From: Atractiella rhizophila
Lineage: Eukaryota
Length of the DNA: 64,000 nucleotides
Assembly (NCBI GenBank): GCA_021432655.1
Contig: MU271203.1
Location: 62,001 to 126,000, forward strand
Reading direction: 5' to 3'
Positions 167-14,163 of the stretch are shown piece after piece; the first letter of the stretch is position 1; every line of letters starts with the position of its first letter. The position numbers and the translations under genes were made by a program. The notes under the pieces are model-generated. The model was not told where the DNA came from, did not search any database, and saw only the letters and a program-made list of their open reading frames with translations.

Positions 167-1545
167 TTATTTCACAAGATATTTTTGAAGAATGTCTTTG
201 ACCTTCTCAACAGGTAGACCTTCAAGCTTTAAGGTTTCTCCCTCTTTACCTCGCCGTCCCTCTCGTCCACCTACCAAAGAGTTCAGGATAGCTTCTTCCA
301 CCGCCTCACTTCCAGCTCTGAACACGGCATTTATACTCTCGTTCCGTATCGTTTCCACATCATAAGATTGGACCGGTGGGTGTCGATGGTTGATTTTCTC
401 CCCGTTTGGAGAGACAAGCAGCTCGTTCGTTTGGTTACCTGCAAAGCCGTGTGATCCAAGGTCAAGACGAAGTCGACGATAAAAAAGAGGACGAACCAGT
501 GGAGACGGCAAGGAAGATATCCCCACTGTGGTTCCGTCCTGAGCCATGAGAGCCAACTTGGGAGAGACCGATGGAGGCACGTTGAGCCAAACGTTGAAGT
601 TGATGAGGAATAAGTGGGGCATCGGTGCTGTTCCTCTAGTTTAAAACGTCGGTAGACCGTACGAGCACTCACAAGATATAAATGAGGATACTGCCGTCAT
701 CTGCCTTGCCTTCCGTTCCTTTGGCTGGAGCGACCTCCTTTTCTTGCAGCAACACTCTTCCAACAGGGACACCGCCAATTCTCAGGTCATTCGTATGTCC
801 GTAGTTCGACTGCACAATGGCGGCCACGACGTATTCTTTCCCCTCTTCGCCTTTGACCAAGCGAGAAGAAGTCCCGACTCCAGCTACGAATTCGTGACAA
901 GTCATTCCAGCTCCTCCGCCGAACGGTCCCTCCAAAACTTCCCCTTGAGCTCCGGAAGCAGCAAGATCGCAAGCTTCGATGGCCAGCGCCTTATCCACAA
1001 TGCTAGTTTCGATTCCGTTCAACCACCAGTCGCATGTCTCGCCTTTGCACGAAAATCGATCAGGTCACACGAAGTAAGCTCAGAGGAGATGCAGACCAAC
1101 GACCGGCGTCCCATAGAGACGCCCCATCTCGTCTTCAGGTATGCTCTCTTTCCTCCATTGAGATAGAACCCATTCCCAGAGACCTTGAAATGTGTTGCCA
1201 AGCGAAAGCGAATTGCACATGGCGATGGGCATGTTGATGGTACCCCAATCCCGAATTTGATGGCTTCCCGTGAGTTCTCCATTTCCATTTAAGACATGGA
1301 AAGCGGCGTAGACTGGGTGTTTGAATAGCGAAGAAGTTGGTCGCGGTAGAATGACAGTCACTCCTTTGACGATGGGGCCAGTTGGACCCGCCTCCACTAC
1401 GGTCTTTTGAGAGATCGATAGACCTGCCGTAGAGTGAGATAAAGCATTGAGCTCAAAGGAGAAGCAGGCCTTTGATGTCTAAGATTGAATTCTTAGGTCC
1501 AACGGGCAGTTGTCCCGGCATGTAGCCAAGATCACGAATCCTCAT
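167..1545 (-). CDS. DmpA-like aminopeptidase (peptidase family S58), multi-exon
   Basis: The spliced product has family motifs RIRDLG..PGQLPVGPKNSILD, NGNGELTG, PVVGETCD, GGGAGMTC and QSNYG, the G|S autoprocessing site DDGSI, and EAVEEAILNS. Confidence 0.88.
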
Positions 1546-2810
1546 CTCAATAAAATGTCGCAATTCAGGCCGTCGACGTTGAGATTGGTAATCATGTAAA
1601 GATATTTCTTCAGTACCCTCGCCCCTCCCAACAACGACTTTAAATCCATATGACATCTCGAGTCACACGACAGGCAAGGCTCCGCGGAATCGCATCGTTG
1701 GGGAGCAACACGACGCCTCGCTGTCGTCAAATATGGAATGAATGAAAGCTGCCCATAAACAATACAACGTTGCAAGTGGTCATTATTGTAGTGGTCACTA
1801 AAATATTATATCCCTCGCCAGTCTTTCCTTTGGTATAAAACCATGAATTCATTAATAAAAGTAAAAAGATAGAATAGCTATAAAAAAGGTCGTCGTTTCA
1901 TCTTCCGGATAAGAAGTGTCGATGTCGCCTTCACATCCTTACAAACGAAAAGTACCAGCTACGCCGGTAGTTCACCTAAGAGCTGAAAAGAAAGTCTAGC
2001 CTTCCATATAGATAAAGTTGTATGACAGACTCGGACGTTTATGGGAAGAAACAACGAGTTTGGGGTATTTGCCTTTCAAAAGATTAGGAATAAAATAGGG
2101 AGCACCAAAACCACAACATTATTGTTTGCCTTGCCATACACTACCAACCATGTAACACAACAACACAGGGATATTCTCCTTGATTGTCAGCTGGCATGTT
2201 TTCCGCTAAATTTTAGAGATAAACTCAGAAGAACTGCCAGCACACACTGCACCAAGTTTAATTCTCTGGTCTTCCATGCCTCCAAGCAGGCAGCACTCAC
2301 TTTGAGGCCGAGTTGAAACTCAACCTTTCCTTCCCCATGACCACCAGTGCCTGCCTCATGACAAATCGAGGGCTTCAGTAGCAGACTAGGAATGTACAAG
2401 CCTTCTGCTATCCTCTTGATATTGTCATTCAGCCGGAGCCGAACGCACAAGATTTCACTGGAGGTTTCACGAGGTTTGCAGTGGGTTTTACTGGGATTTC
2501 ACGTCTTCTTTGTCAAGATTCGAAAACGAAACGACGAACAGGTGGCATTGGCGTCACCTCGGCTGTCTTTATACTCGCCTGGTCACTTGGAGGTGTGCTT
2601 CGGTGGCCACGATAGCATCCTATACGAGGACAGTTACTGGGAGACCAACCAGAATCACCCGCACCCGAAAGGCTACTTTCGGAACCGAAAGAACGACTCC
2701 CGCTCAAAATACGACTTCTTCAACGAAGGCTATAACGCGCTTTTATCATATGAATTCAACGAGTATTTTACCTATTTAACATCTCTATCATATTCTACCC
2801 AAAATCAGAG

Positions 2811-5800
2811 ATGCCAACGTTAGCCACTTCTCGATCTCAAAACAACCTCCTCAAACGCTCTCCGCCGCGCGCTCGCAAATCCTCAAATGGCGCCAACCAA
2901 GCCCATCATCCTTCGAAAGGTGTCAACCCCCGTGTGACCCGCTCTAGGAGTTCGATGGATTTGGAGGCTAATGAGAAGGTGGACGATGGGGATGAAACAT
3001 CGGGGATAACCTCGTTGGATGATGAGACTGACGGAGAAGGAGCTGAGAAGATGGAAGAGAGAAAGATAGTGAGTCCTCGCCGTCGGTTGACTCGTGCACT
3101 CTCTGGGAATATGGGTGGTGTGCCTCTCTTTGCGCTCGACTCGCCCTCTCCCGTTTTAGCCAGGAAGAACAGGATGAAGAAGCGAGCACTCCGTAGCCCG
3201 TCGAGGAAGGCTCGCGTCCGTGTCCTTTCGCCTATCGTCAATATACCTCACAATCGATCACCCTTTCCTCCTCGCAAGAAGCGGATAACAAATCTCTCTC
3301 CTTACCATAGATCCATGGAAGCATCTCCGTCTTCTTCTTCTGCACCTTCGGGAAGCCCAAGGGAGCAGGAATACGAAGAAGAGAGTACCACTGATGAGGA
3401 TCTTGATTTTGAAGACCGTCCCGTTAGAGCGGGCACGAAAAGGAAGAGGATGGGAACTCAGGAAAATGGTAGGAGCCTTCGGCGGCGGCGGAGTAGTGGG
3501 ATTGGTGTAGGAATGAGAGTGCTGAAGAAGGGTAAAGGAAAGGAGAAGTTGAAGGAGGAACCACCCAGCTCCGGTGCCAGCTGGGTAAGCACAAGTACTG
3601 AAGTCGATGGGGAGCAGTTGGACGAAGACGTGGACAGTGAGTGTCCTATCTTTGGTTTCGACTATGATCTGGAGCTGAATGTGTTTCCTCCGTATAAAGT
3701 GGACGAGTTTCTCCTGAAGACCTCAACCATGTCCCAACTCCACAGGCAACGCAAGTCTTCTCTACAACGGCTCGTCTCGGCACTACCCTCCTCACGTTCC
3801 TCTAACGCCCTCACCTCCACAATGACGAAAGATGACCTCGTCGCCGCCATCCTTTCTGCCCGATCATCCTTGCCTTCCACTTCCGCCATCGTCTCCATCT
3901 CCCCCTCTGCGGCGCGTGATGTTTCTCCTTCACCGCCCCCAACCGTCAAAAAGCCAAACGCAAAGCAAATCCCTCCCAGTCTGGATTCTGGGGACTTGGT
4001 CACGGGGAAGAAGAAGGGACGGACGACTTCAACACCATTCAAATTTGAAGATTCGGACGCTTTGATAAAGGGAACAGCACTTTCGAGAAGCAAGAGTATG
4101 GGTGACCTGAAAGGAAAGTCAAGCAAGTTCGACCCCATCCGAGAGCTGGGAGTTGACGGTGGTTGTACTCGTATGACAAGGGCTCAGGAAAAGAAGGAGA
4201 AGAAGGAGTTGAGGAATGGGAAGTTTGTCGGTGTCGGTGCAAAGGGAAAGGCGAAGGAAGCAAAGAAGAGGAAAGTCACTTTTTCGGAGCTACCAGAGGA
4301 GAGCGACGAACCTGAGACGAGTGAGGACGATGCGGAGGAGTGGAGGGAGAGCGGGATGGAGGATGAGGAGGAGGAGGAAGAGGAAGAGGAAGAGGAGGCT
4401 GAAACAGATACCAATGAGGACGATGAGGGTCTTGCGCCACCGACACCGATTGCGAGGAGAACAAGGGCGGGTTCAGGCTTGGTGAGGCAGGAGAGCTCGC
4501 CGAATATAGGTGGGCTTTATATCACAAGGAAGAAGGCGAAGAAGACAATCGATGATCCCTCTGAGGAAGAAGATGAGGAGGAGGAGACAGGAGAGAGTGA
4601 AGGAATGGACGTGGATGAGGAAGAGGAAGTGGCGCCGAAGAAGGGACGGAAGAACTCCGTGCAACCGGAGACGCTGCCATCTGAGAGTGAAGAAGTAGAA
4701 GAGGAGGAGGAGGAGGAAGCAGACGAAGGAGAAGAAGAGGATGTCACTATCCGAGAAGATGATGGTATTGGTGTCGACGAAAGCGTGGAAGAAGAGCTCA
4801 CAGCTGGTCGTGTCCTGCGGACTCTCAGAAACGGCAAGATTATCGTTACAGAAGATGAAGGCGAGCAGGAGGAAGTGGAAGAGGAGGAAGAGGAAGAAGG
4901 CAGTGAAGAAGACGAGAATATGGAAGGTGTTGAGATTGACTTGTCCATTGCGACGAGAGCTAGTTTATTGCGATTAAGACGAGATGATCTTGTCGCCCTT
5001 TGCGAATCCCAGGAACTGGATTTTGAGGGAACCAAAAAGCAGCTTGTCAGTCGTCTACTCAAATCGGTGCGCCATCATCTTGTTTCTATCCATTTTGCTT
5101 AAACGACATGTTGTAGCGCGAAGCCGTCCCTGATAAACCGGCTGTAATGGACTCACCTTTGACCTCTGTCGCAACTACGACGGCATCCTCGAGCAGATCA
5201 AGTAATGCAACAGCCACACCAACCACGAAACGGCCGAAGCTCAAGCAGACAAAGACCGAGATTCTGAAGGAAATCGCATCAGGCAATCGCGATGTTAGTA
5301 CACCTCCGATCCTCCTTAAGGACAAAAGGAAGAGATTTTCCTCGGAAAAACCCGATACCCCTCCTGCTAGCGGTGAGGAGGCAGAAACGGAGTTGAACGG
5401 CCTGGACCTAGAGAGCCTGAATCTGCTCGATAAGGAGATCTCGCCCGATAAGCTGACTAAGCTCGAAAAAATTGGTAGTGGCGGTTTCAAGGTTTGTTTA
5501 ATCTTTCAATTTGGGATGTTGTTGATGAGCCGAGATAGGATGTATACAAAGGAAGGTACAAGCGTTACTCTGTTGCGATTGCGGATATCAGAGGACATCT
5601 CACGGAGATGGATATTAAAGAGCTTTCCCTCCTCCGAGATCTCAGACACGACAACATTGTCCGCTTCATCGGTGTCAGCATACCTGAAGACCCCAAAGAT
5701 GTTCCTTGTATGATCGTCACTGAGCTCTGTTCAAATGGAGACCTGTACGACTATATCAGGAACGTCAACGCACCGTCCCTTGAGAAAGTGGTATGCATCG

Positions 5801-6472
5801 TATATCTTAGTAACGACTCGAACTTAAAAGTCATAACAGCTGAGCATTATGCTTGATATCGCACGTGGTCTTGAATATCTACACACCAACACCCCCTCCA
5901 TCATCCATCGTGATCTCAAATCCTCCAATGTGCTCATCACTGCTAAAGGAGTGGGCAAAATCAACGACTTTGTATGTGCTCATTACTTGTCTTGCTCCTA
6001 ATTGCTGACACTATCGTCTAGGGCCTTGCTCGGGTTAAGAACTCTACTAGGTCTATGGTCAAGTCGTTGGTTGGTACTGTGAATTGGCAAGCACCAGAGC
6101 TTTGGGTCCCGCACCCTCGTTACAACGAAAAGGTGGATGTTTACTCGGCTGGTCTGGTCTTCTGGGAAATGTTGCAATGGCACTTCCCGACAAAGAAGTA
6201 TCCATTCGAGGGGTCGAATGAACATGTTAGTCCCACTTATTTTATCTGTTTAAGGGTGTCCCGAGCTGATGCTTTTAAAGGCTATCTACAACGATGTCGG
6301 AAAGAACAAAATGCGACCGTCCACGAAGGGTATGAAGCCACAGTGGGGATCCGATATTCTTTTGCTCATAGACAAGATGTGGGCTCAAGAGCCGTCTGCG
6401 CGACCTCGGATGACAGAAATAGTTCATACACTCGAAGAACAATACCTGGAAGCTCGGAAGAAGAAACGGTGA
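2811..6472 (+). CDS. TKL-group protein kinase with long acidic/basic disordered N-terminus and SAP-like domain
   Basis: Spliced exons give [57 protein letters not shown] and PSARP. A SAP-like segment [31 protein letters not shown] lies at about 4965-5060. Confidence 0.9.
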
Positions 6473-7577
6473 TGAAGCGATTTTGGTAACGAGGTTGTGC
6501 ATAGGTTTCAGGTCCTTGTTTTATTAATTGCGTCTTATATCCCTTGCTCACAACTCATATTTTTGGAGGCCGAACTTCCCTCTGCTTCTCTGCAGCATAT
6601 CATCAAGAAACTCATCCCAGCATTCAGCTCTATTTTCGCGAATTTTCACTTCTGCTTCCATGAAATCTCTGACCATTCACACTTTGCCTTTATGCGGTTG
6701 TAGGTTGACCAAGTGCCATAAAATATGATTGTCGTTCCTCCAGAAGTTATTGTTCGTGAAAGACACCAAACCGAAAATCTCGGTTCATATTAAATTGACA
6801 GAGTTCTGTACATCTCTCGTCAATGTCCAGAGCGAGAGAAGTAACCTTTGGTTGCTGTGAAATCGACTGCTCAATAGTGATAACCCTCTCAAACAGATCT
6901 AACGATATTAATCAATCAGGGTGCTTAGCGGGTGTTGGGATTTGAGGTGTTGGACTTTTGGCATCATCATCATCAAAAAATTAAACTGAAACGGTGGGCG
7001 AATGAGAAGTGGCGGTCAACAACAAAATCCCAAGGCTTTCAATCAATAACTGTTAGCTTTCAGAAATTGGAGGGATCTGCTCAATTTTCTACAGAGGTTG
7101 GAATAGAAGGCTGCCTTTGGAGAAATAGGACTTTGTGCGGCAAGGACTGAAATAAGAGAAAAGGCCAATAAGACTTACCAAGCTCTTCCGTCATGGAATA
7201 CAACATTACCGCCAAAATCATCGAAAAGGAAGTACAGAGAGTCAAAATCGTTCACAAGTGCCACTCCCTTCATGAGCTGCAAGATCAAGAGAGAAAGCAC
7301 TCCGGAAACTGCTCCAAAGCAACTCCTTTCAAGAACTATATTCGCCCAGCCTACAATGCTTGCCTGTCTCATCCATAGTTATAACGAGCTTTCTTTGGCT
7401 TACCATTATTATTATTAGCTGGTCATCAGGGCGTCCCTTGATTTGGACCTGTCCGAGCTTCCAGTCACAGGAATCTCAAACCTCCGCCCGGACGTCCAAC
7501 CCCAACCACCAACCAATTGGCGCTCACGACTTCACGACTTTACGGCTTCACGAATCGACATTCCAACAGCCACCAGC

Positions 7578-8811
7578 ATGGGACTCACATCGATACTCGG
7601 ACTCCCTCTCCTCGAAGAGCACTGGAAGGTAACCGTCGTTTCTGCGCTCTCCTGCGTCCTTCTTCAATCCATCATTGGTCCCATTCTGTCCTCGCTTTAC
7701 TTCCCTACGACCTACCCACAACTCCCTCCTAAAACACGGTTTGGATGGAACATTCGAGTCGTCGCTTTCGTTCATGCCCTTATAGTCACTCCATTCTCCT
7801 ATTACTACCTCAGGAATCCACCGCCGGCTTATGTCGAGGAGCCTCTGATAGGATACGACCGAACAGCGTCGAACCTCTTTGCGCTCAGCTTTGGATATTT
7901 CCTCTGGGACACAGTCATTAGCGTCGTGGATGCCGTCAAGTATAAAGCTGGTTGGGGATTTGTGTTGCACGGAGTGGCGTGCGCTTTCGTCTTTTCGAAC
8001 ACCTTTAGACCTTTTGCAACAGGTTTTGGGGCTGTCTTCTTACTAGTGAGTTTTTCTTTCGTTACCCATCAATATTGGGCGTGAAGCGAGTTTGGGGTGC
8101 TGTTCATGACAAGAACGGTGTAATGCCAAGATGCTGAACGTGCCGTTTGTGCCGCTCGTCCCTGCTCTGCGTCTAGCGAATCAGATGCTTTACATCACTC
8201 TGCACTTGCACTTCCTCTCCAATTTACATTCGCATCCATTTCCTTTACTCTTGTTGACACAGCTTGCTGACTTAACCGTGTTTATGACTTCATCAACGAC
8301 AGTGGGAGCTCTCTACAATGTTGGTCCTTTTCCTTCCTCATCTCATTATCGCTAACAACAATCCTCAGTTTCCTGAATCCGCACTGGTTCTTCGACAAGC
8401 TGGGAATGACTGGTTCCCGCGCACAATTGATCAACGGCATCCTGCTCCTCTCGTCCTTCTTCTTCGTCCGCCTCGTAATTGGAACCTACCACTCCTATCG
8501 GTTATGGGTGGAAACATTCTTAGAGCTTTCACGCCCTGAAGAGGATGGCGGGAGGAGGATTGGGTGGTTCGTCGCAGTTGTGACTTTGTTAGGGAATGGC
8601 AGTGTCTGTGGTATGCACTCCGTTTTGACCTTCGATTTCGAGGTATTGATGTTAGCCAATTTGCCGTCTAGGATTGAACTTCTTCTGGTTCAGACAAATG
8701 ATTGCAGCTCTCAAGAAGCGCTTTGCTCCGACAGAAGGAGATAAGAACTTACATGTCACGCCTAAGAATCGGGTGGCGGAGGAAGCGAGTTTGGAGAAGA
8801 AGATGGAGTGA
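7578..8811 (+). CDS. TLC (TRAM/LAG1/CLN8) domain membrane protein, TMEM56/TDA4-like
   Basis: Motifs WNIRVVAFVHA, GYFLWD, GFVLHG, L|WELST-FLN.HWFFDK, FFFVRL and LNFFWF. Introns at 8046-8302 and two short ones downstream; stop TGA at 8809-8811. Confidence 0.88.
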
Positions 8812-9219: not shown

Positions 9220-10707
9220 ATGGCGAATGCAGGTGATCAAGTTGAGGCTGGTGCTGGTGAGCTCTACCGATTTTACAACATTACAGCTGAGCTCTTTGCC
9301 ATAGTTCTTTCAGCATGCCCAACTCCAGACTTGAAGAATGCAAATCAATGCCGCTCAACCATCGAACACACCCTTCCGATAATTTTCAAGTTCCTTTCCG
9401 AGACAACTCAAGATTTTCCGAGTCCTGCTCTCCTTCCTTGCGCGCTCGTCTCCCGCTCCTGGTATTCTCTCGCACTACCATGGATATATCAGGTTCTACG
9501 TTTGGAGAGCTACTTTGACGCACTTACCTTCTGGAAATCTCTGCCTGCTCTTCGTCGCCCCAGTGTAGAAAGGTCGCCTTCTGCCGTTTCTCCTCTGTGT
9601 TGGATCCAAAGTCTATCTTTCGACCCATCGGCATTCTCTTATATGTCACTGGCATTGTCACAGTTTGAGCCTGAGATGTTCATCGTGGACATCTTGGATG
9701 CCATTGCGGATGCGAATGGAGAGAACTCTAATTCCAACTTGAGAGTTCTTGAATTGCAGCTGCCTAACGATTTCGCGATCTCTGGCTTTTGTGTGATTTC
9801 GGAGAACCTTTGGCGAGCGATTGCAAGACATGATGGGCTGCAAACCTTAGAAGTGCAACTGAACGGGACTGGGGGGACGAACGAAGTGTTAGATAGGGTA
9901 CCGTTCGGACATTACAAGGATGGGTTGCACGATCGAGCGCTCTCTCTCCTTCTGGAACAAGTGAGGAGACTTGACAATCACCTTGCGCTTCCAATTCTAG
10001 GGCACCTTAGCTCGCTCCGTCTCAAAGATACCTACATTACCGACTCCATTATTTCTGGCGTCTGTTGCTCGCAAACCATTGAAAATTTCCATCTCCTCTC
10101 CTGTTATGGATGGACGGTTCATGGTCTCCATGTTTCTCTCACATTCCTCTCCAAATCTCTCACTGAGTTCGAGTGTATCGTGGAGCACGATGCCGAAACG
10201 ACCAGTCTTCGATGGAACACCTTCCTCGACGGCACGATGCCTTTTTTCAAGCTGAAAGTATTTCACTTGAAGAGAGATTGGCCTTTCAATCTTCACCTTT
10301 GTCGCTTCATCCGACTCTTCCCTCCCGGCGAATTTCTATCCTTTGACGTCTCAGGAACATTGCCTTTGGACCCAGCTTCTCTGTTGATACATATTAGGGA
10401 TCTTTCCTGTGTTAAGAAGATGGGAACTATTCGACTCGAATTCTTGTATGATGAGAACGGGAGAGGAGCGCAGAGGAAGACCAAGTTTCACCAACTAGGC
10501 ACCGTACGGGCTCTTTGTCAATACGTGGACGAGAGGAAGATTGACGTATTGTTCGACATGGGGAGAGGGAAGGTTTGGGACTGGAAGAGTCTCGAGAAGA
10601 TGGCACTTAAGATCGAGAAGAGCAAAGAGTACCACACGTTTTCAAGTTCAGATACAATGCGACCATTTGGCCCTCAGAGTCTGTCAAAAATGTTTCCTGA
10701 CGTGTAA
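9220..10707 (+). CDS. F-box-like/LRR-like hypothetical protein, apparently single exon
   Basis: 495 aa ORF with an F-box-type helix (LPIIFKFL...LLPCALVSRSWYSLALPWIY) followed by LxxLxL repeats (LRVLELQ, LQTLEVQ, LSSLRLK, LKVFHLK). The start codon is uncertain. Confidence 0.65.
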   Translation: MANAGDQVEAGAGELYRFYNITAELFAIVLSACPTPDLKNANQCRSTIEHTLPIIFKFLSETTQDFPSPALLPCALVSRSWYSLALPWIYQVLRLESYFDALTFWKSLPALRRPSVERSPSAVSPLCWIQSLSFDPSAFSYMSLALSQFEPEMFIVDILDAIADANGENSNSNLRVLELQLPNDFAISGFCVISENLWRAIARHDGLQTLEVQLNGTGGTNEVLDRVPFGHYKDGLHDRALSLLLEQVRRLDNHLALPILGHLSSLRLKDTYITDSIISGVCCSQTIENFHLLSCYGWTVHGLHVSLTFLSKSLTEFECIVEHDAETTSLRWNTFLDGTMPFFKLKVFHLKRDWPFNLHLCRFIRLFPPGEFLSFDVSGTLPLDPASLLIHIRDLSCVKKMGTIRLEFLYDENGRGAQRKTKFHQLGTVRALCQYVDERKIDVLFDMGRGKVWDWKSLEKMALKIEKSKEYHTFSSSDTMRPFGPQSLSKMFPDV

Positions 10708-10837: not shown

Positions 10838-11816
10838 TCAGTCATGCTTATTTACATGTTCCGCGTATTCGTCAATCAAAGTCGGCCCTGTTTGCAATCT
10901 CATCAATTTCATCCGACTTTCAAAGAAATGAGAAACATTACAAGCGCCGTCTTCGCTCCAGCCGCTGAGTGTCTTCTTCCCATCCTCTTCCACAAGCTGC
11001 ATGCTCCTCGAAAATTCTAACACCATTCCCCATCCATCCTTCGTGATGCCCTTCAGACCTGCCTTCATTCTCTCTTCCACGAATCCTAAAAAGTCCTTCA
11101 CCATCTCTTCATCGGCTTCTGCATAGTCTGGAAGTAGTAAAGACCAAAGAGTGAGTGCAAGATCGATCGGCAGGGAACGTGCGCCGGGAGAGAGGAAGAA
11201 AGGGAAAAGGAAGTTGTAAAACGGTTGGAACGTTGGCGAGCGCTCCTCTTTGAAGGAATCGCACGTGTTTAGGAGGTATGTTTTGAGCTTGGCCAATGTA
11301 GTCAAACCGTGAGATGACATAAATTTCGCCAACGATGCAGCATTGAATTGACCCTTTAATCAGACGGCGCGTCAAGTCCAATTCTACACTACCAAGGATA
11401 GGTCATAACAAATCATGACGCACCAGTTCTGAAGCGCCAGTTTTCCAAGCCAGCACCATAGGCTCTAATCCCTCTACCCCGATCTCCATATCTGTAAACA
11501 GAGCCTCCGCACCTTCAGCACCAATGGTTCCCTCGACTTTGGCGTCCTTATCCACGTACTTCTCAAGGATTGCCTCTGGACCAGCAGGGGCGGAAGCAAC
11601 CTGAGATATTTTCTTTGGTGCGACCTCTTCCACGCTGTTATCGCTGCTCATCGTGGCATCCTCAACTATAGGAGCGCTCTTCTTTTTGCCCCTCCCTCCA
11701 CTTTTCGATGTCGATCCAGACGCTCCACTTGCAGCTCTCTTTGAGGACCTCGTCGCAGTCTTCTTGGTTGGAGGAGCCGAGGTCGCTTCTGATGCTGCTT
11801 TCCGCTTGGGAGCCAT
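10838..11816 (-). CDS. DCN1: DCN1-like cullin neddylation protein (PONY domain; basic N-terminus, no UBA seen)
   Basis: Motifs IGAEGAEALFTD, MVLAWK, FYNFLFPF, GARSLPIDLALTLWSLL, ITKDGW.MVLEF and, after splicing, EDGAWPTLIDEY. Confidence 0.85.
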
Positions 11817-12439
11817 CGCGCGTAGGTCAAGAGAAGAAGAGACAGGAAAAATGCACAGAAGAAAGACTGAAGTGGTCGTCTTGTTTGGGCTCCATATCAA
11901 ACAAGCTCACGTGGTTTTAAGCACGTCGAGTCGCGCTTGCCACACGCGTCGAGTCAGCGAAAAGCGAGGCCAGAGAGCACCTTTGATATAGTTGCAGACC
12001 TATTGAGGGATGTGTGGTTATCTGGAAACTCGCATGAACGCGACGAGATCGCGAAATCGGTTGGAGCTGAGGCATGTTCAACACATGAGATAATCAGATC
12101 AACAAATGCATCTCAGACGGCGTTGGCTTCTCGTAGGGATCCTTTCAGATGATTAAACGGCAGTAGTCTAATGAGAATAAGCTACTTGCTTCTGCAATAG
12201 CTCAGAGTGCTTCCTACATCGCGAGCTAATCTTAGGCCTTCACTGGCAATCTTCTACCCAATTACCCAACTCAACATCATATAACAGACACAACTCTGTC
12301 CTTAAATACAGATGACAATCTGCATAAAACATCCAAAAACATCTCATTTCTGGTCTGGAGGAGTGTGAGTCACTGCGGAAGCTACGTCACGGTGATCCGT
12401 GTCTTTCCGATGAGCCTGCAGGAGCAGTGATCAACCACG

Positions 12440-14163
12440 ATGATTCTGCGGTCTCTTCTCACAATTCTCAGCCTCTCCAGCGCAACTCAAATCCCCTTTC
12501 AAGCGCCAGTCCAACAACCAGGACCTGTAGATTTCTGGTCCCTGCTTGATTCCCCTTCCGCGTCATCCTCGCCCCAGCCAGGCACACTTCGCTCATTCCC
12601 TCCTTTACGCACTCGCAAACAAAAGATTTCCAGACCACGAAACCTCAATTTGACGACCTATCATGCTCTCCGTAAAGCGCGGTGGCGCTCCCGTGTGGCC
12701 TTGAGGACCAGCGAGCCTTTCGCCATTGTTAATGCGTTGTCGAGGGAGCGAGAGGTTTGGGAGGAATGGGATGGATGGGAGGACGAAGAAGTTGTGGTAC
12801 CGGATACGAGTGACTGGGATACCCTGAAAGGATTGGCAATGATGACTGGGAACGCTTACTGGGAACATCCACCTGTTAATGGAACCATTCCGCCGGGTTG
12901 GTATGATTTGGGAGAAGGATGGGAAGTCGTGCGTTGTCCATTGCTCTCATTGGAAACCTGAATGTTAAGTGCGTGTTTGTGCACGTTCTGTAGAGAGAAA
13001 GCTTTGGCTGGTCACTGCCCAATATGAGAGGCCACATCTTCGCTACACCAGATAACTCTACAGTGGTCATGGCCATCAAAGGAACAAGCGCTGGAATCGT
13101 AGGTGGAGGTGGGGACACAGGGTCCAACGATAAGTTCAATGTGCGTTTTCTTACCATTTCCATCCTCACTCCGTCCATTAAGTCGTCGCCGTTTAGGACA
13201 ACCTGCTCTTCTCCTGCTGTTGTGCGCGGGTAGATTGGACGTGGACGCCAGTGTGCGACTGTTATCGAAAAGGCGGAGACGGCTACCAATGCTCGGGCGA
13301 TTGCGTGGAGACAGCGGTGATGGAAGAGGGGTCGTATTACCCAGCGGCGACCGAGTTGTTCAACAATATCACAGCGCGCTATGCCGATTCTCAACTCTGG
13401 ATAGTAGGCCACAGTCTAGGTGGAGGACTCGGAGCGCTCCTTGCCATCACCTTCGGCATTCCAGCCGTCACCTTCGAAGCTCCAGGCGATCTGTTGGCCG
13501 CTCGAAGACTCCATCTTCCCCTACCCCCACCAAAGACCATCGCGAACGAATCCCTTCCCTTTCCATTACCGTCTTTCCCGAAAGGTATGGAAGGCGTGAT
13601 CGATTGGCTGAGGTGGAGTGAGAAGGCGGATGAAGATGATCAACTGGGGAATGGGGATTATGGATACGCACCAGTGACGCACGTTTATCACAATGCCGAT
13701 CCGATACCAATGGGTGTATGGTACGTCTCTCCATTTCCTCTTTCTCCCTTAGCTGACTGATGATGTTCACAGCACCGGTGTCCTCTCCTCCTGTGCACTA
13801 GCAGGCTTCGCACTCGAATCTCGCTGTCATACAGGCAAAACCATCCTTTTCGATACCGTCTCCAAGCTAGGCTGGTCCGTCGACATCCGGACGCATCCCA
13901 TCAGCCAAGTGATCACGAAAGTGTTGGACCCAGAGACATGGCGTGATAAGGAACTGTTGTCATCAGCTGCACATGAACGGGATGGAGGGAATGAGGAGGA
14001 TCGAGAGGCGATGGGAAAGTGGAGATGGCCTTGGAAAGGAAAGAAGGATAAAGGAGAAGGAGAAGATGAGGAGAAGAAGGATCCTCTTGTTCCTGAGGCA
14101 GAGCCGGAGTTGGATTGCCAGGATTGCTTTAGGTGGAACTATCAGCAGCCAGAGGAGAGGTAG
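12440..14163 (+). CDS. ATG15: Autophagy-related vacuolar lipase Atg15
   Basis: N-terminal hydrophobic segment; motifs LAMMTGNAY, RGHIFA, IKGTS, NDKFN|DNLLFSCCCARV, lipase GHSLGG, TFEAPGD, H.ADPIPMG, ESRCHTG and terminal C.DC.RW. Confidence 0.93.

What the first reader, a model, noticed from the sequence alone, without database searches (positions are those of the whole stretch)
5471..5600. WNK-like relocation of the catalytic lysine in a fungal TKL kinase
Seen: after removing intron 5492-5538 the N-lobe reads [25 protein letters not shown]. The normally invariant beta3 Lys (VAIK) is Ala (5581-5583), and a Lys (5489-5491) replaces the third Gly of GxGxxG. HRDLK..N, DFG and APE are intact. Known: WNK kinases use this arrangement (GRGSFKTVYKG, no beta3 Lys), and budding yeast has no WNK. 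Inference: an active kinase with convergent 'with-no-K' chemistry on a TKL scaffold ([17 protein letters not shown]), which automated annotation might call a pseudokinase.
Basis: partly seen in the sequence, partly recalled or inferred. Interest (0 to 1): 0.78.

Follow-up and report, generated by a model that had tools for sequence, protein, structure and literature searches.

The report
Fungal kinase family with relocated lysine
This fungal gene belongs to an old family of signalling kinases whose ATP-holding lysine sits in the glycine loop instead of its usual strand, as in human WNK kinases; it looks like a working enzyme that reached this rare design on its own, though no activity has been measured.

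Summary
Confirmed. Intron 5492-5538 is spliced in contigs of 3 of 4 runs, giving GSGGFK-DVYKG...VAIAD: Lys856 (5489-5491) at the third Gly of the loop, Ala871 (5581-5583) where the beta3 Lys belongs. The swap is family-wide. Of 385 family proteins from Basidiomycota, Mucoromycota, Zoopagomycota and aphelids, 367 of 375 with a residue there have the loop Lys (the other 8 look like mis-called N-termini); beta3 is Ala/Gly/Ser/Cys in 375 of 375; HRD-K-N, DFG, alphaC Glu and an activation-loop Ser/Thr are nearly invariant. Trees put the family inside TKL/TK, and an AU test rejects a family+WNK clade (p about 0.03). It has DFG rather than WNK's DLG, no C-terminal tail, and a conserved SAP motif upstream. 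Cryptococcus neoformans Ykl1 (CNAG_06671; viable, near-silent deletion) is very probably the ortholog. Best reading: an active SAP-TKL kinase that gained WNK-type chemistry independently. Activity and the lysine's role are inferred, not shown. The design is known from WNK and POMK, and this scan noted it earlier in bacterial and phage kinases; ten literature searches found no description for this fungal family. New variant of a known kind.

The parts
2811..6472 (+). Whole gene model, 7 exons (2811-3636, 3700-5066, 5117-5491, 5539-5790, 5840-5971, 6022-6225, 6281-6472), 1115 aa: long basic/acidic low-complexity N-terminus, SAP motif, C-terminal kinase domain
   Evidence: Open frame to one stop; all six introns seen as joints in run X22. 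The start ATG at 2811 is inferred; no single contig spans the gene.
4962..5063 (+). SAP-like helix-extension-helix motif (about residues 697-730)
   Evidence: Pfam SAP below cut-off here (E 0.034); a profile from 60 short early-fungal members hits residues 705-730 at E 1e-7 and 178 of 189 long family proteins, 0 of the reversed controls; over Pfam cut-off in P0307, P0308, P0309, P0337, P0343, P0352
5450..6433 (+). TKL-type protein kinase domain (about residues 843-1103), over exons 3-7
   Evidence: Pfam PK_Tyr_Ser-Thr/Pkinase; best solved relatives CTR1, DLK, ZAK, TNNI3K, BRAF
5474..5491 (+). Gly-rich loop GSGGFK; Lys856 (5489-5491) replaces the third Gly, in register with WNK1 Lys233
   Evidence: register against WNK loci; start of strand beta2 in the AlphaFold model; Lys in 367 of 375 family proteins with a residue there
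5492..5538 (+). 47-nt GT..AG intron directly after the Lys codon
   Evidence: Joint in 3 of 4 runs
5572..5586 (+). Strand beta3 VAIAD; Ala871 (5581-5583) at the site of the canonical Lys
   Evidence: Ala 161, Gly 104, Ser 81, Cys 29, Lys 0 of 375
5620..5622 (+). alphaC Glu884
   Evidence: Glu in 379 of 380 with a residue; in helix 138-149 of the model of P0001
5906..5929 (+). Catalytic loop HRDLKSSN
   Evidence: Asp 363 of 364, Lys 364 of 365, Asn 364 of 364
5966..6024 (+). DFG (5966-5971 plus 6022-6024, split by intron 5972-6021); DFG, not WNK's DLG
   Evidence: Asp 368 of 369, Phe 368 of 369; WNK loci read DLG
6064..6099 (+). Activation segment end: Ser999 (candidate phospho-site), GTVNWQAPE
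   Evidence: Ser or Thr in 364 of 365

Best explanation
An active Ser/Thr protein kinase of the TKL group, member of an ancient fungal SAP-kinase family (aphelids, Zoopagomycota, Mucoromycota, Basidiomycota; very probably C. neoformans Ykl1). Shown: a Lys at the first position of strand beta2, a small residue at the beta3 site, all other catalytic residues intact, TKL ancestry. Inferred: Lys856 reaches across the space left by the small beta3 residue and holds the ATP phosphates, as Lys233 does in WNK1; the enzyme is an RD kinase switched on by phosphorylation at the conserved activation-loop Ser/Thr; the SAP motif and basic clusters tether it to DNA or chromatin in the nucleus. The swap arose once in an early fungal ancestor, independently of WNK.
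For: Strict co-variation: loop Lys 367 of 375, beta3 only Ala/Gly/Ser/Cys in 375 of 375; 0 of 151 outside domains with the loop Lys. Position 856 is the only N-lobe column that is Lys and never Arg in both the early-fungal (105 proteins) and the mainly basidiomycete (280) groups. Catalytic Asp, Lys, Asn, DFG Asp, alphaC Glu and APE Glu each conserved in over 99% of proteins with a residue there. Family is one clade (SH-aLRT 99-100), joined with TKL/TK (95-96) apart from WNK (98-99) in trees of 50 and 43 rows. AU test on 28 rows rejects family+WNK at p 0.027 with and 0.026 without the loop-to-beta3 columns; all 8 regions of the domain favour the TKL tree. Family profile ranks CTR1, DLK, ZAK, BRAF first, no WNK among the 60 rows shown. 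Model matches CTR1 at Z 28.6 (rmsd 2.0, 241 aligned) and WNK1 at Z 23.4 (rmsd 2.8, 233 aligned; rank 46 of 50 shown). Precedent: the beta2 Lys is needed for activity in WNK1 and POMK (PMC10211241, passages; PMC4718504, passages).
Against: No activity, ATP binding or side-chain geometry was measured; the structure tool gave no coordinates, so the reach of Lys856 is argued from register only. WNK is not far: with P0001 alone WNK1 scores 110 bits against 129 for CTR1 and 106 for BRAF; 37% identity to an animal-type WNK over 237 columns; mean identity family-WNK 30%, family-TKL 33%; a few columns besides the Lys favour WNK (for example the Tyr of QIY). The AU p-values are modest, from LG+F+G4, with partial outgroup pieces, no fungal or microsporidian WNK and no named animal or plant TKL in the tree; the test under the mixture model did not finish. 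The ykl1 deletion is nearly silent (weak capsule, urease and peroxide scores only; PMC5052723 supplement). Nuclear location and DNA binding are untested.
Confidence: 0.73

Rival explanations
1. A pseudokinase or very weak kinase: it binds nucleotide or serves as a scaffold, and the loop Lys has a structural or binding role.
For: No beta3 Lys; near-silent deletion of the Cryptococcus ortholog; TKL holds the most pseudokinases, mainly in plants and fungi (PMC10211241, passage); no assay found in ten searches.
Against: Every other catalytic residue and the activation-loop Ser/Thr are held at over 99% from aphelids to mushrooms; the loop residue is Lys, never Arg, at exactly the WNK position.
Confidence: 0.12
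2. A highly diverged true WNK, or a WNK/TKL chimera, so that the Lys is inherited and not convergent.
For: WNK1 ranks just below the top TKLs for P0001; 37% identity to WNK locus L004; Cys at beta3 in 29 members, as in WNK's VAWC; the genome has no other WNK-like match (best 63.5 bits, 34%); true WNKs exist in microsporidia (PMC4280135, passages).
Against: AU rejects family+WNK at p about 0.03; all 8 regions favour TKL, so no sign of a WNK-derived lobe; TKL-type columns D-x-A in alphaE, K before DVY, W in alphaF, RP in alphaG-H; DFG not DLG; median 15 residues after the last kinase motif, over 60 in only 3 of 327.
Confidence: 0.08
3. Active kinase, but another basic residue does the job: Arg874 (three after the beta3 site) or Lys883 (next to the alphaC Glu).
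For: Arg874 is Arg/Lys in 93% of early-fungal and 100% of basidiomycete-group proteins; Lys883 is Lys/Arg in 98% of the latter.
Against: Position 883 is Lys/Arg in only 19% of early-fungal members; 874 is not basic in the two aphelid rows and lies past the end of beta3 in the model.
Confidence: 0.05
4. Artefact of a wrong splice or a sequencing error.
For: The 5' splice site (GTTTGT) is weak-looking; the laid records are contigs, not reads.
Against: Joint in 3 of 4 runs; no listed alternative splice gives VAIK; same motif in hundreds of homologs.
Confidence: 0.01

Closest known systems
WNK kinases (WNK1 Lys233 in beta2, Cys250 at beta3; PDB 4pwn, 6cn9)
   Same: Lys at the third Gly position of GxGxxG, small residue at beta3, in the same alignment columns; intact HRD and alphaC Glu; Ser/Thr at the same activation-loop place.
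   Different: TKL ancestry; DFG instead of [12 protein letters not shown] instead of GTPEFMAPE; kinase at the C-terminus with no tail; upstream SAP motif.
TKL-group MAP3K-like kinases (CTR1, DLK/MAP3K12, ZAK, TNNI3K, RAF)
   Same: Best sequence and fold matches; HRDLKSxN catalytic loop; TKL-type alphaE, alphaF and alphaG-H residues.
   Different: They keep GxGxxG and the beta3 Lys (CTR1 alignment; beta3 Lys in 122 of 151 outside domains as aligned, loop Lys in 0).
Cryptococcus neoformans Ykl1 (CNAG_06671 / CNF03480)
   Same: The H99 protein named 'TKL protein kinase' (AFR95956.2, 983 aa) lies in the cluster of P0429, which reads GSGGFK...VAISEF; CNAG_06671 is the only gene with that description in Supplementary Data 1 of PMC5052723. 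The link is by name and chromosome, not by a sequence labelled CNAG_06671.
   Different: Named and deleted, but the main text never mentions it and the rows I saw say nothing on the lysine.
POMK/SGK196
   Same: A second known case of a beta2 Lys replacing the beta3 Lys (PMC10211241, passage).
   Different: A sugar kinase that also lacks canonical HRD, DFG and alphaC Glu; not compared by sequence here.

Membership tests
WNK | Lys in beta2 at the third Gly position, no beta3 Lys | tested here: met
WNK | Kinase domain groups with WNKs | tested here: not met
   Trees; AU p 0.027 and 0.026; WNK rows from metagenome loci, one checked as WNK against the PDB (411 bits)
WNK | DLG motif (part of the chloride site; role recalled, paper not held) | tested here: not met
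   Phe in 368 of 369; WNK loci read DLG
WNK | Autoinhibitory/CCT-like domain and long region after the kinase; RFxV motifs (features recalled) | tested here: not met
   Median tail 15 residues, over 60 in 3 of 327; no RFx[VI] in the model; no such Pfam hit in 34 proteins scanned
WNK | Activity depends on the beta2 Lys; chloride inhibits autophosphorylation | not testable with these tools
   Needs an assay
TKL group | Closest relatives by sequence and tree are TKL/TK kinases | tested here: met
TKL group | Fold closest to TKL/TK structures | tested here: met
   CTR1 Z 28.6, rmsd 2.0, 241 aligned; rows within 1 Z unit are tied; TNNI3K first by Foldseek
TKL group | Ser/Thr-type catalytic loop HRDxKxxN | tested here: met
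   Lys 364 of 365, Asn 364 of 364
TKL subfamily (TKL-ccin, LISK, MLK or other) | Grouping with a named subfamily | tested here: inconclusive
   Some members carry the database name 'TKL/TKL-ccin' (P0082, P0084, P0525); the TKL rows of my trees are unnamed and the forks inside TKL are open
Pseudokinase (sequence rule) | Lacks one of beta3 Lys, HRD Asp, DFG Asp | tested here: met
   No beta3 Lys in 375 of 375; rule as stated in PMC4718504, which also names WNK as an active exception
Pseudokinase (function) | No phosphotransfer | not testable with these tools
   Needs an assay
SAP domain | 35-residue helix-extension-helix motif over Pfam's cut-off | tested here: inconclusive
   Below cut-off in the window protein, over it in 6 of 16 family proteins; family-built profile hits 178 of 189 long members

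The most novel reading that the evidence does not exclude
The family is a chromatin-tethered sensor kinase: as proposed for WNK1, moving the lysine frees a pocket behind the ATP site, and an ion or small metabolite bound there gates autophosphorylation of a SAP-anchored nuclear kinase in fungi outside Ascomycota. Against it: DFG rather than DLG, and wild-type scores of the ykl1 mutant in the heat-map columns that I read as salt and sorbitol stress (abbreviations read from memory).
Probability: 0.1. Interest if true: 0.85.

Novelty: new variant of a known kind. Interest (0 to 1): 0.6.

Why it matters
If active, this is another independent eukaryotic invention of 'with-no-lysine' catalysis, on a TKL scaffold and with an otherwise canonical active site, which makes it a clean system for asking what the swap is good for when WNK's chloride motif is absent. 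It names the residue to change for a kinase-dead control in a family that has no VAIK Lys, keeps the family from being written off as pseudokinases by the three-residue rule, and gives an identity to an orphan kinase (Ykl1) that is conserved from aphelids to mushrooms and has no close match in the 16 ascomycetes of one published BLAST matrix. The unusual ATP pocket differs from that of nearly all host kinases.

Tried and rejected
Alternative splicing: 30 in-frame donor/acceptor pairs around the intron, none restores VAIK. WNK/TKL chimera: no region favours the WNK tree. Lys883 as the substitute: not conserved in early fungi. A true WNK elsewhere in the genome: none seen, but the search is exon by exon. 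The AU test under the mixture model did not finish; the reported tests use LG+F+G4 on 28 of those 43 rows. Rows left out of the trees: of 80 collected rows 50 went into; dropped were three short or near-duplicate WNK rows, every second TKL row, eight family rows and two outgroup rows. The counts cover the 462 proteins first listed (each call lists only its best 120 or 150), not the cluster-member lists; 77 of the 462 fell outside the family by score. WNK absent from the Foldseek rows shown: not used as evidence. The L107 fragment had no PDB match at E 1e-6. No ascomycete or chytrid name among the listed hits: weak, since only top hits are listed. Sequence look-up in the scan's earlier findings gave nothing. 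Literature: ten searches found no description of the lysine swap in this family; subscription papers and supplements are not searched, and the 2019 tree-of-life pseudokinase survey (Kwon et al., Sci Signal) and the WNK1 chloride paper (Piala et al. 2014) are not held, so the family may be listed there or in kinome databases. No complex prediction was run.

Full report
Observation. The window encodes a seven-exon gene on the + strand, 2811-6472, 1115 residues, with the kinase domain at its C-terminus. Removing the 47-nt intron 5492-5538 gives [25 protein letters not shown]. Lys856 (5489-5491) stands at the third Gly of GxGxxG, and Ala871 (5581-5583) stands where the beta3 Lys belongs. [11 protein letters not shown] and APE are intact. 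Contigs of 3 of 4 public runs show this joint, and run X22 shows all six introns (only X5 and X6 are on record as RNA, and all are contigs). None of 30 in-frame alternative splices restores VAIK. The database protein P0001, named Atractiella rhizophila by its source, equals the model from residue 742 onward.

Extent of the family. Exon 4 found 164 proteins at E 1e-10 among 236 candidates; the named ones among the 120 listed are rusts, red yeasts, smuts, Malassezia and mushrooms, plus one under a fern name that looks like fungal contamination. A profile search of 1.84 billion representatives (120 new proteins among the 150 listed, 180 full-length domains scored) showed a gap: 29 domains at 282-494 bits, all with the loop Lys and Ala, Ser, Gly or Cys at beta3, then 151 domains at 165 bits or less, none with the loop Lys and 122 with the beta3 Lys as aligned. 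Six divergent members led to short SAP-kinase forms of about 370 residues in Mucorales, Mortierellales, Glomeromycotina, Zoopagomycota and the aphelids Amoeboaphelidium and Paraphelidium (808 hits among 8000 candidates scored, 120 listed). A Kwoniella member led to Tremellomycetes, C. neoformans and many Agaricomycetes.

Conservation. Of 462 proteins pooled from those four searches, 385 were family by score. Loop Lys: 367 of 375 with a residue; the other 8 (6 Gln, 1 Ile, 1 Cys) are gene calls that start in or read through the intron region, judged from their printed sequences. Beta3 site: Ala 161, Gly 104, Ser 81, Cys 29, Lys 0. alphaC Glu 379 of 380; catalytic Asp 363 of 364; catalytic-loop Lys 364 of 365 and Asn 364 of 364; DFG Asp 368 of 369; APE Glu 360 of 362; activation-loop Ser/Thr 364 of 365. 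Position 856 is the only N-lobe column that is Lys and never Arg in both the early-fungal and the basidiomycete groups; Lys883 beside the alphaC Glu fails in early fungi (19% basic), while Arg874 is well kept (93% and 100%) and remains a minor rival. In the AlphaFold model of P0001 (mean pLDDT 70.2, residues 5-95 low) the Lys begins strand beta2 and the Ala lies in beta3; no coordinates were returned, so the side-chain reach is inferred from register with WNK.

WNK or TKL. WNK sequences came from a motif scan of metagenomes (113 loci; translated); L004 matches WNK1 at 411 bits. Two quick trees (50 and 43 rows, SH-aLRT only) make the family one clade (99, 100), joined to TKL/TK and apart from WNK. 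On 28 rows under LG+F+G4 the AU test rejects family+WNK at p 0.027, and at 0.026 without the loop-to-beta3 columns. All 8 regions of the domain favour the TKL tree, by 0.2 to 14.6 log-likelihood units. The family profile ranks CTR1, DLK, ZAK and BRAF at the top of the PDB, and the model matches CTR1 at Z 28.6 against 23.4 for WNK1. Against: P0001 alone scores WNK1 at 110 bits, between TNNI3K and BRAF; mean identities differ little (30% to WNK, 33% to TKL); outgroups were partial, and no fungal WNK or named TKL was in the trees. Independent origin is therefore well supported but not beyond doubt. The family also lacks WNK's DLG and any C-terminal tail.

Architecture and likely work. A SAP-like motif lies a median 102 residues before the Gly loop in 178 of 189 long members, at residues 705-730 here, with no hits in reversed controls; it passes Pfam's cut-off in 6 of 16 family proteins scanned. 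The long basidiomycete N-terminus is low-complexity, with basic clusters and an acidic stretch (43% Asp/Glu over residues 470-690). SAP motifs are known as DNA- or chromatin-binding elements (recalled), so a nuclear, activation-loop-regulated Ser/Thr kinase is the likeliest reading; location and substrate are untested.

Known gene. The H99 protein AFR95956.2, 'TKL protein kinase', is in the cluster of P0429, which has the swap. In Lee et al. 2016 (PMC5052723; passages and supplement rows seen) the only H99 gene so described is CNAG_06671, YKL1. Its deletion was made and scored -1 for capsule, +1 for urease and +1 for peroxide, 0 in the other 27 columns, on a scale where 1 means weak. Its best hits were 1e-70 to 1e-131 in other basidiomycetes, 1e-39 in Phycomyces, and only 1e-16 to 1e-19 in 16 ascomycetes. 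The main text does not mention the gene.

What is known. The beta2 Lys design is established for WNK1 and POMK, where changing it abolishes activity (PMC10211241, passages), and it was proposed to open WNK1's halide pocket (PMC4718504, passages). Microsporidia have true WNKs (PMC4280135, passages). Kosti et al. 2010 (PMC2838846, passages) and a 2025 review of fungal kinases (PMC12394161, term search) do not use the word WNK. Ten searches (listings only, apart from the papers named) found no description of the swap in this family; the 2019 pseudokinase survey and the WNK1 chloride paper were not held and may bear on novelty. The scan's earlier notes report the same swap in bacterial and phage kinases (six notes; unchecked); my own scan caught one bacterial-type kinase (L034) and one TKL-type fragment (L107) with it. 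The swap thus seems to have arisen several times, which lowers surprise at the chemistry and raises the odds that it is a working design.

Verdict. Observation confirmed; interpretation supported, with activity inferred. A new variant of a known kind: an ancient fungal SAP-TKL family with WNK-type lysine placement. Interest 0.6.

Noticed in passing
L034:103-1047 (+): A bacterial-type Ser/Thr kinase (67% GC locus; Pfam Pkinase 136 bits) with GRGGFK in the loop and Cys at the beta3 site (VALC), HRD and DFG intact; outside both WNK and the fungal family, on a long branch.
   Followed up: partly
L107:256-630 (+): A TKL-looking fragment with GRGTFK and Ser at beta3 (VAVS). The scan pattern fixed the loop Lys only, so loss of the beta3 Lys in both non-WNK hits is a small independent sign of co-variation.
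   Followed up: partly
window 2811-5146: The public protein model P0001 starts at Met742 and omits the first 741 residues with the SAP motif, although contigs of run X22 bridge introns 1 and 2.
   Followed up: yes
window 5492-5538; P0065, P0006, P0007, P0023, P0069, P0072: The intron right after the Lys codon seems shared with other fungi: several gene calls start at or read through the same K|DV junction.
   Followed up: partly
P0216, P0343: Calcarisporiella thermophila has two members; one groups with the basidiomycete forms (support 91-97) and shares their four-residue shorter beta3-alphaC link, the other with the short early-fungal forms, hinting at an old duplication.
   Followed up: partly
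P0540, P0548, P0563, P0028, P0037: Family members carry misleading database names: general RNA polymerase II transcription factor, polo kinase CDC5, CLA4, MAPKKK13.
   Followed up: no
P0061, P0150: Members filed under a fern and an endive are close to smut-group proteins and are probably fungal contamination of plant assemblies.
   Followed up: no
window 167-1660 (-), 7560-8800 (+), 9226-10707 (+), 10838-11900 (-), 12431-14163 (+): Neighbouring frames look, by recalled motifs only, like a DmpA-type peptidase, a TLC-domain membrane protein, an F-box-like protein, a DCN1-like protein and a class 3 lipase; no link to the kinase is implied.
   Followed up: no
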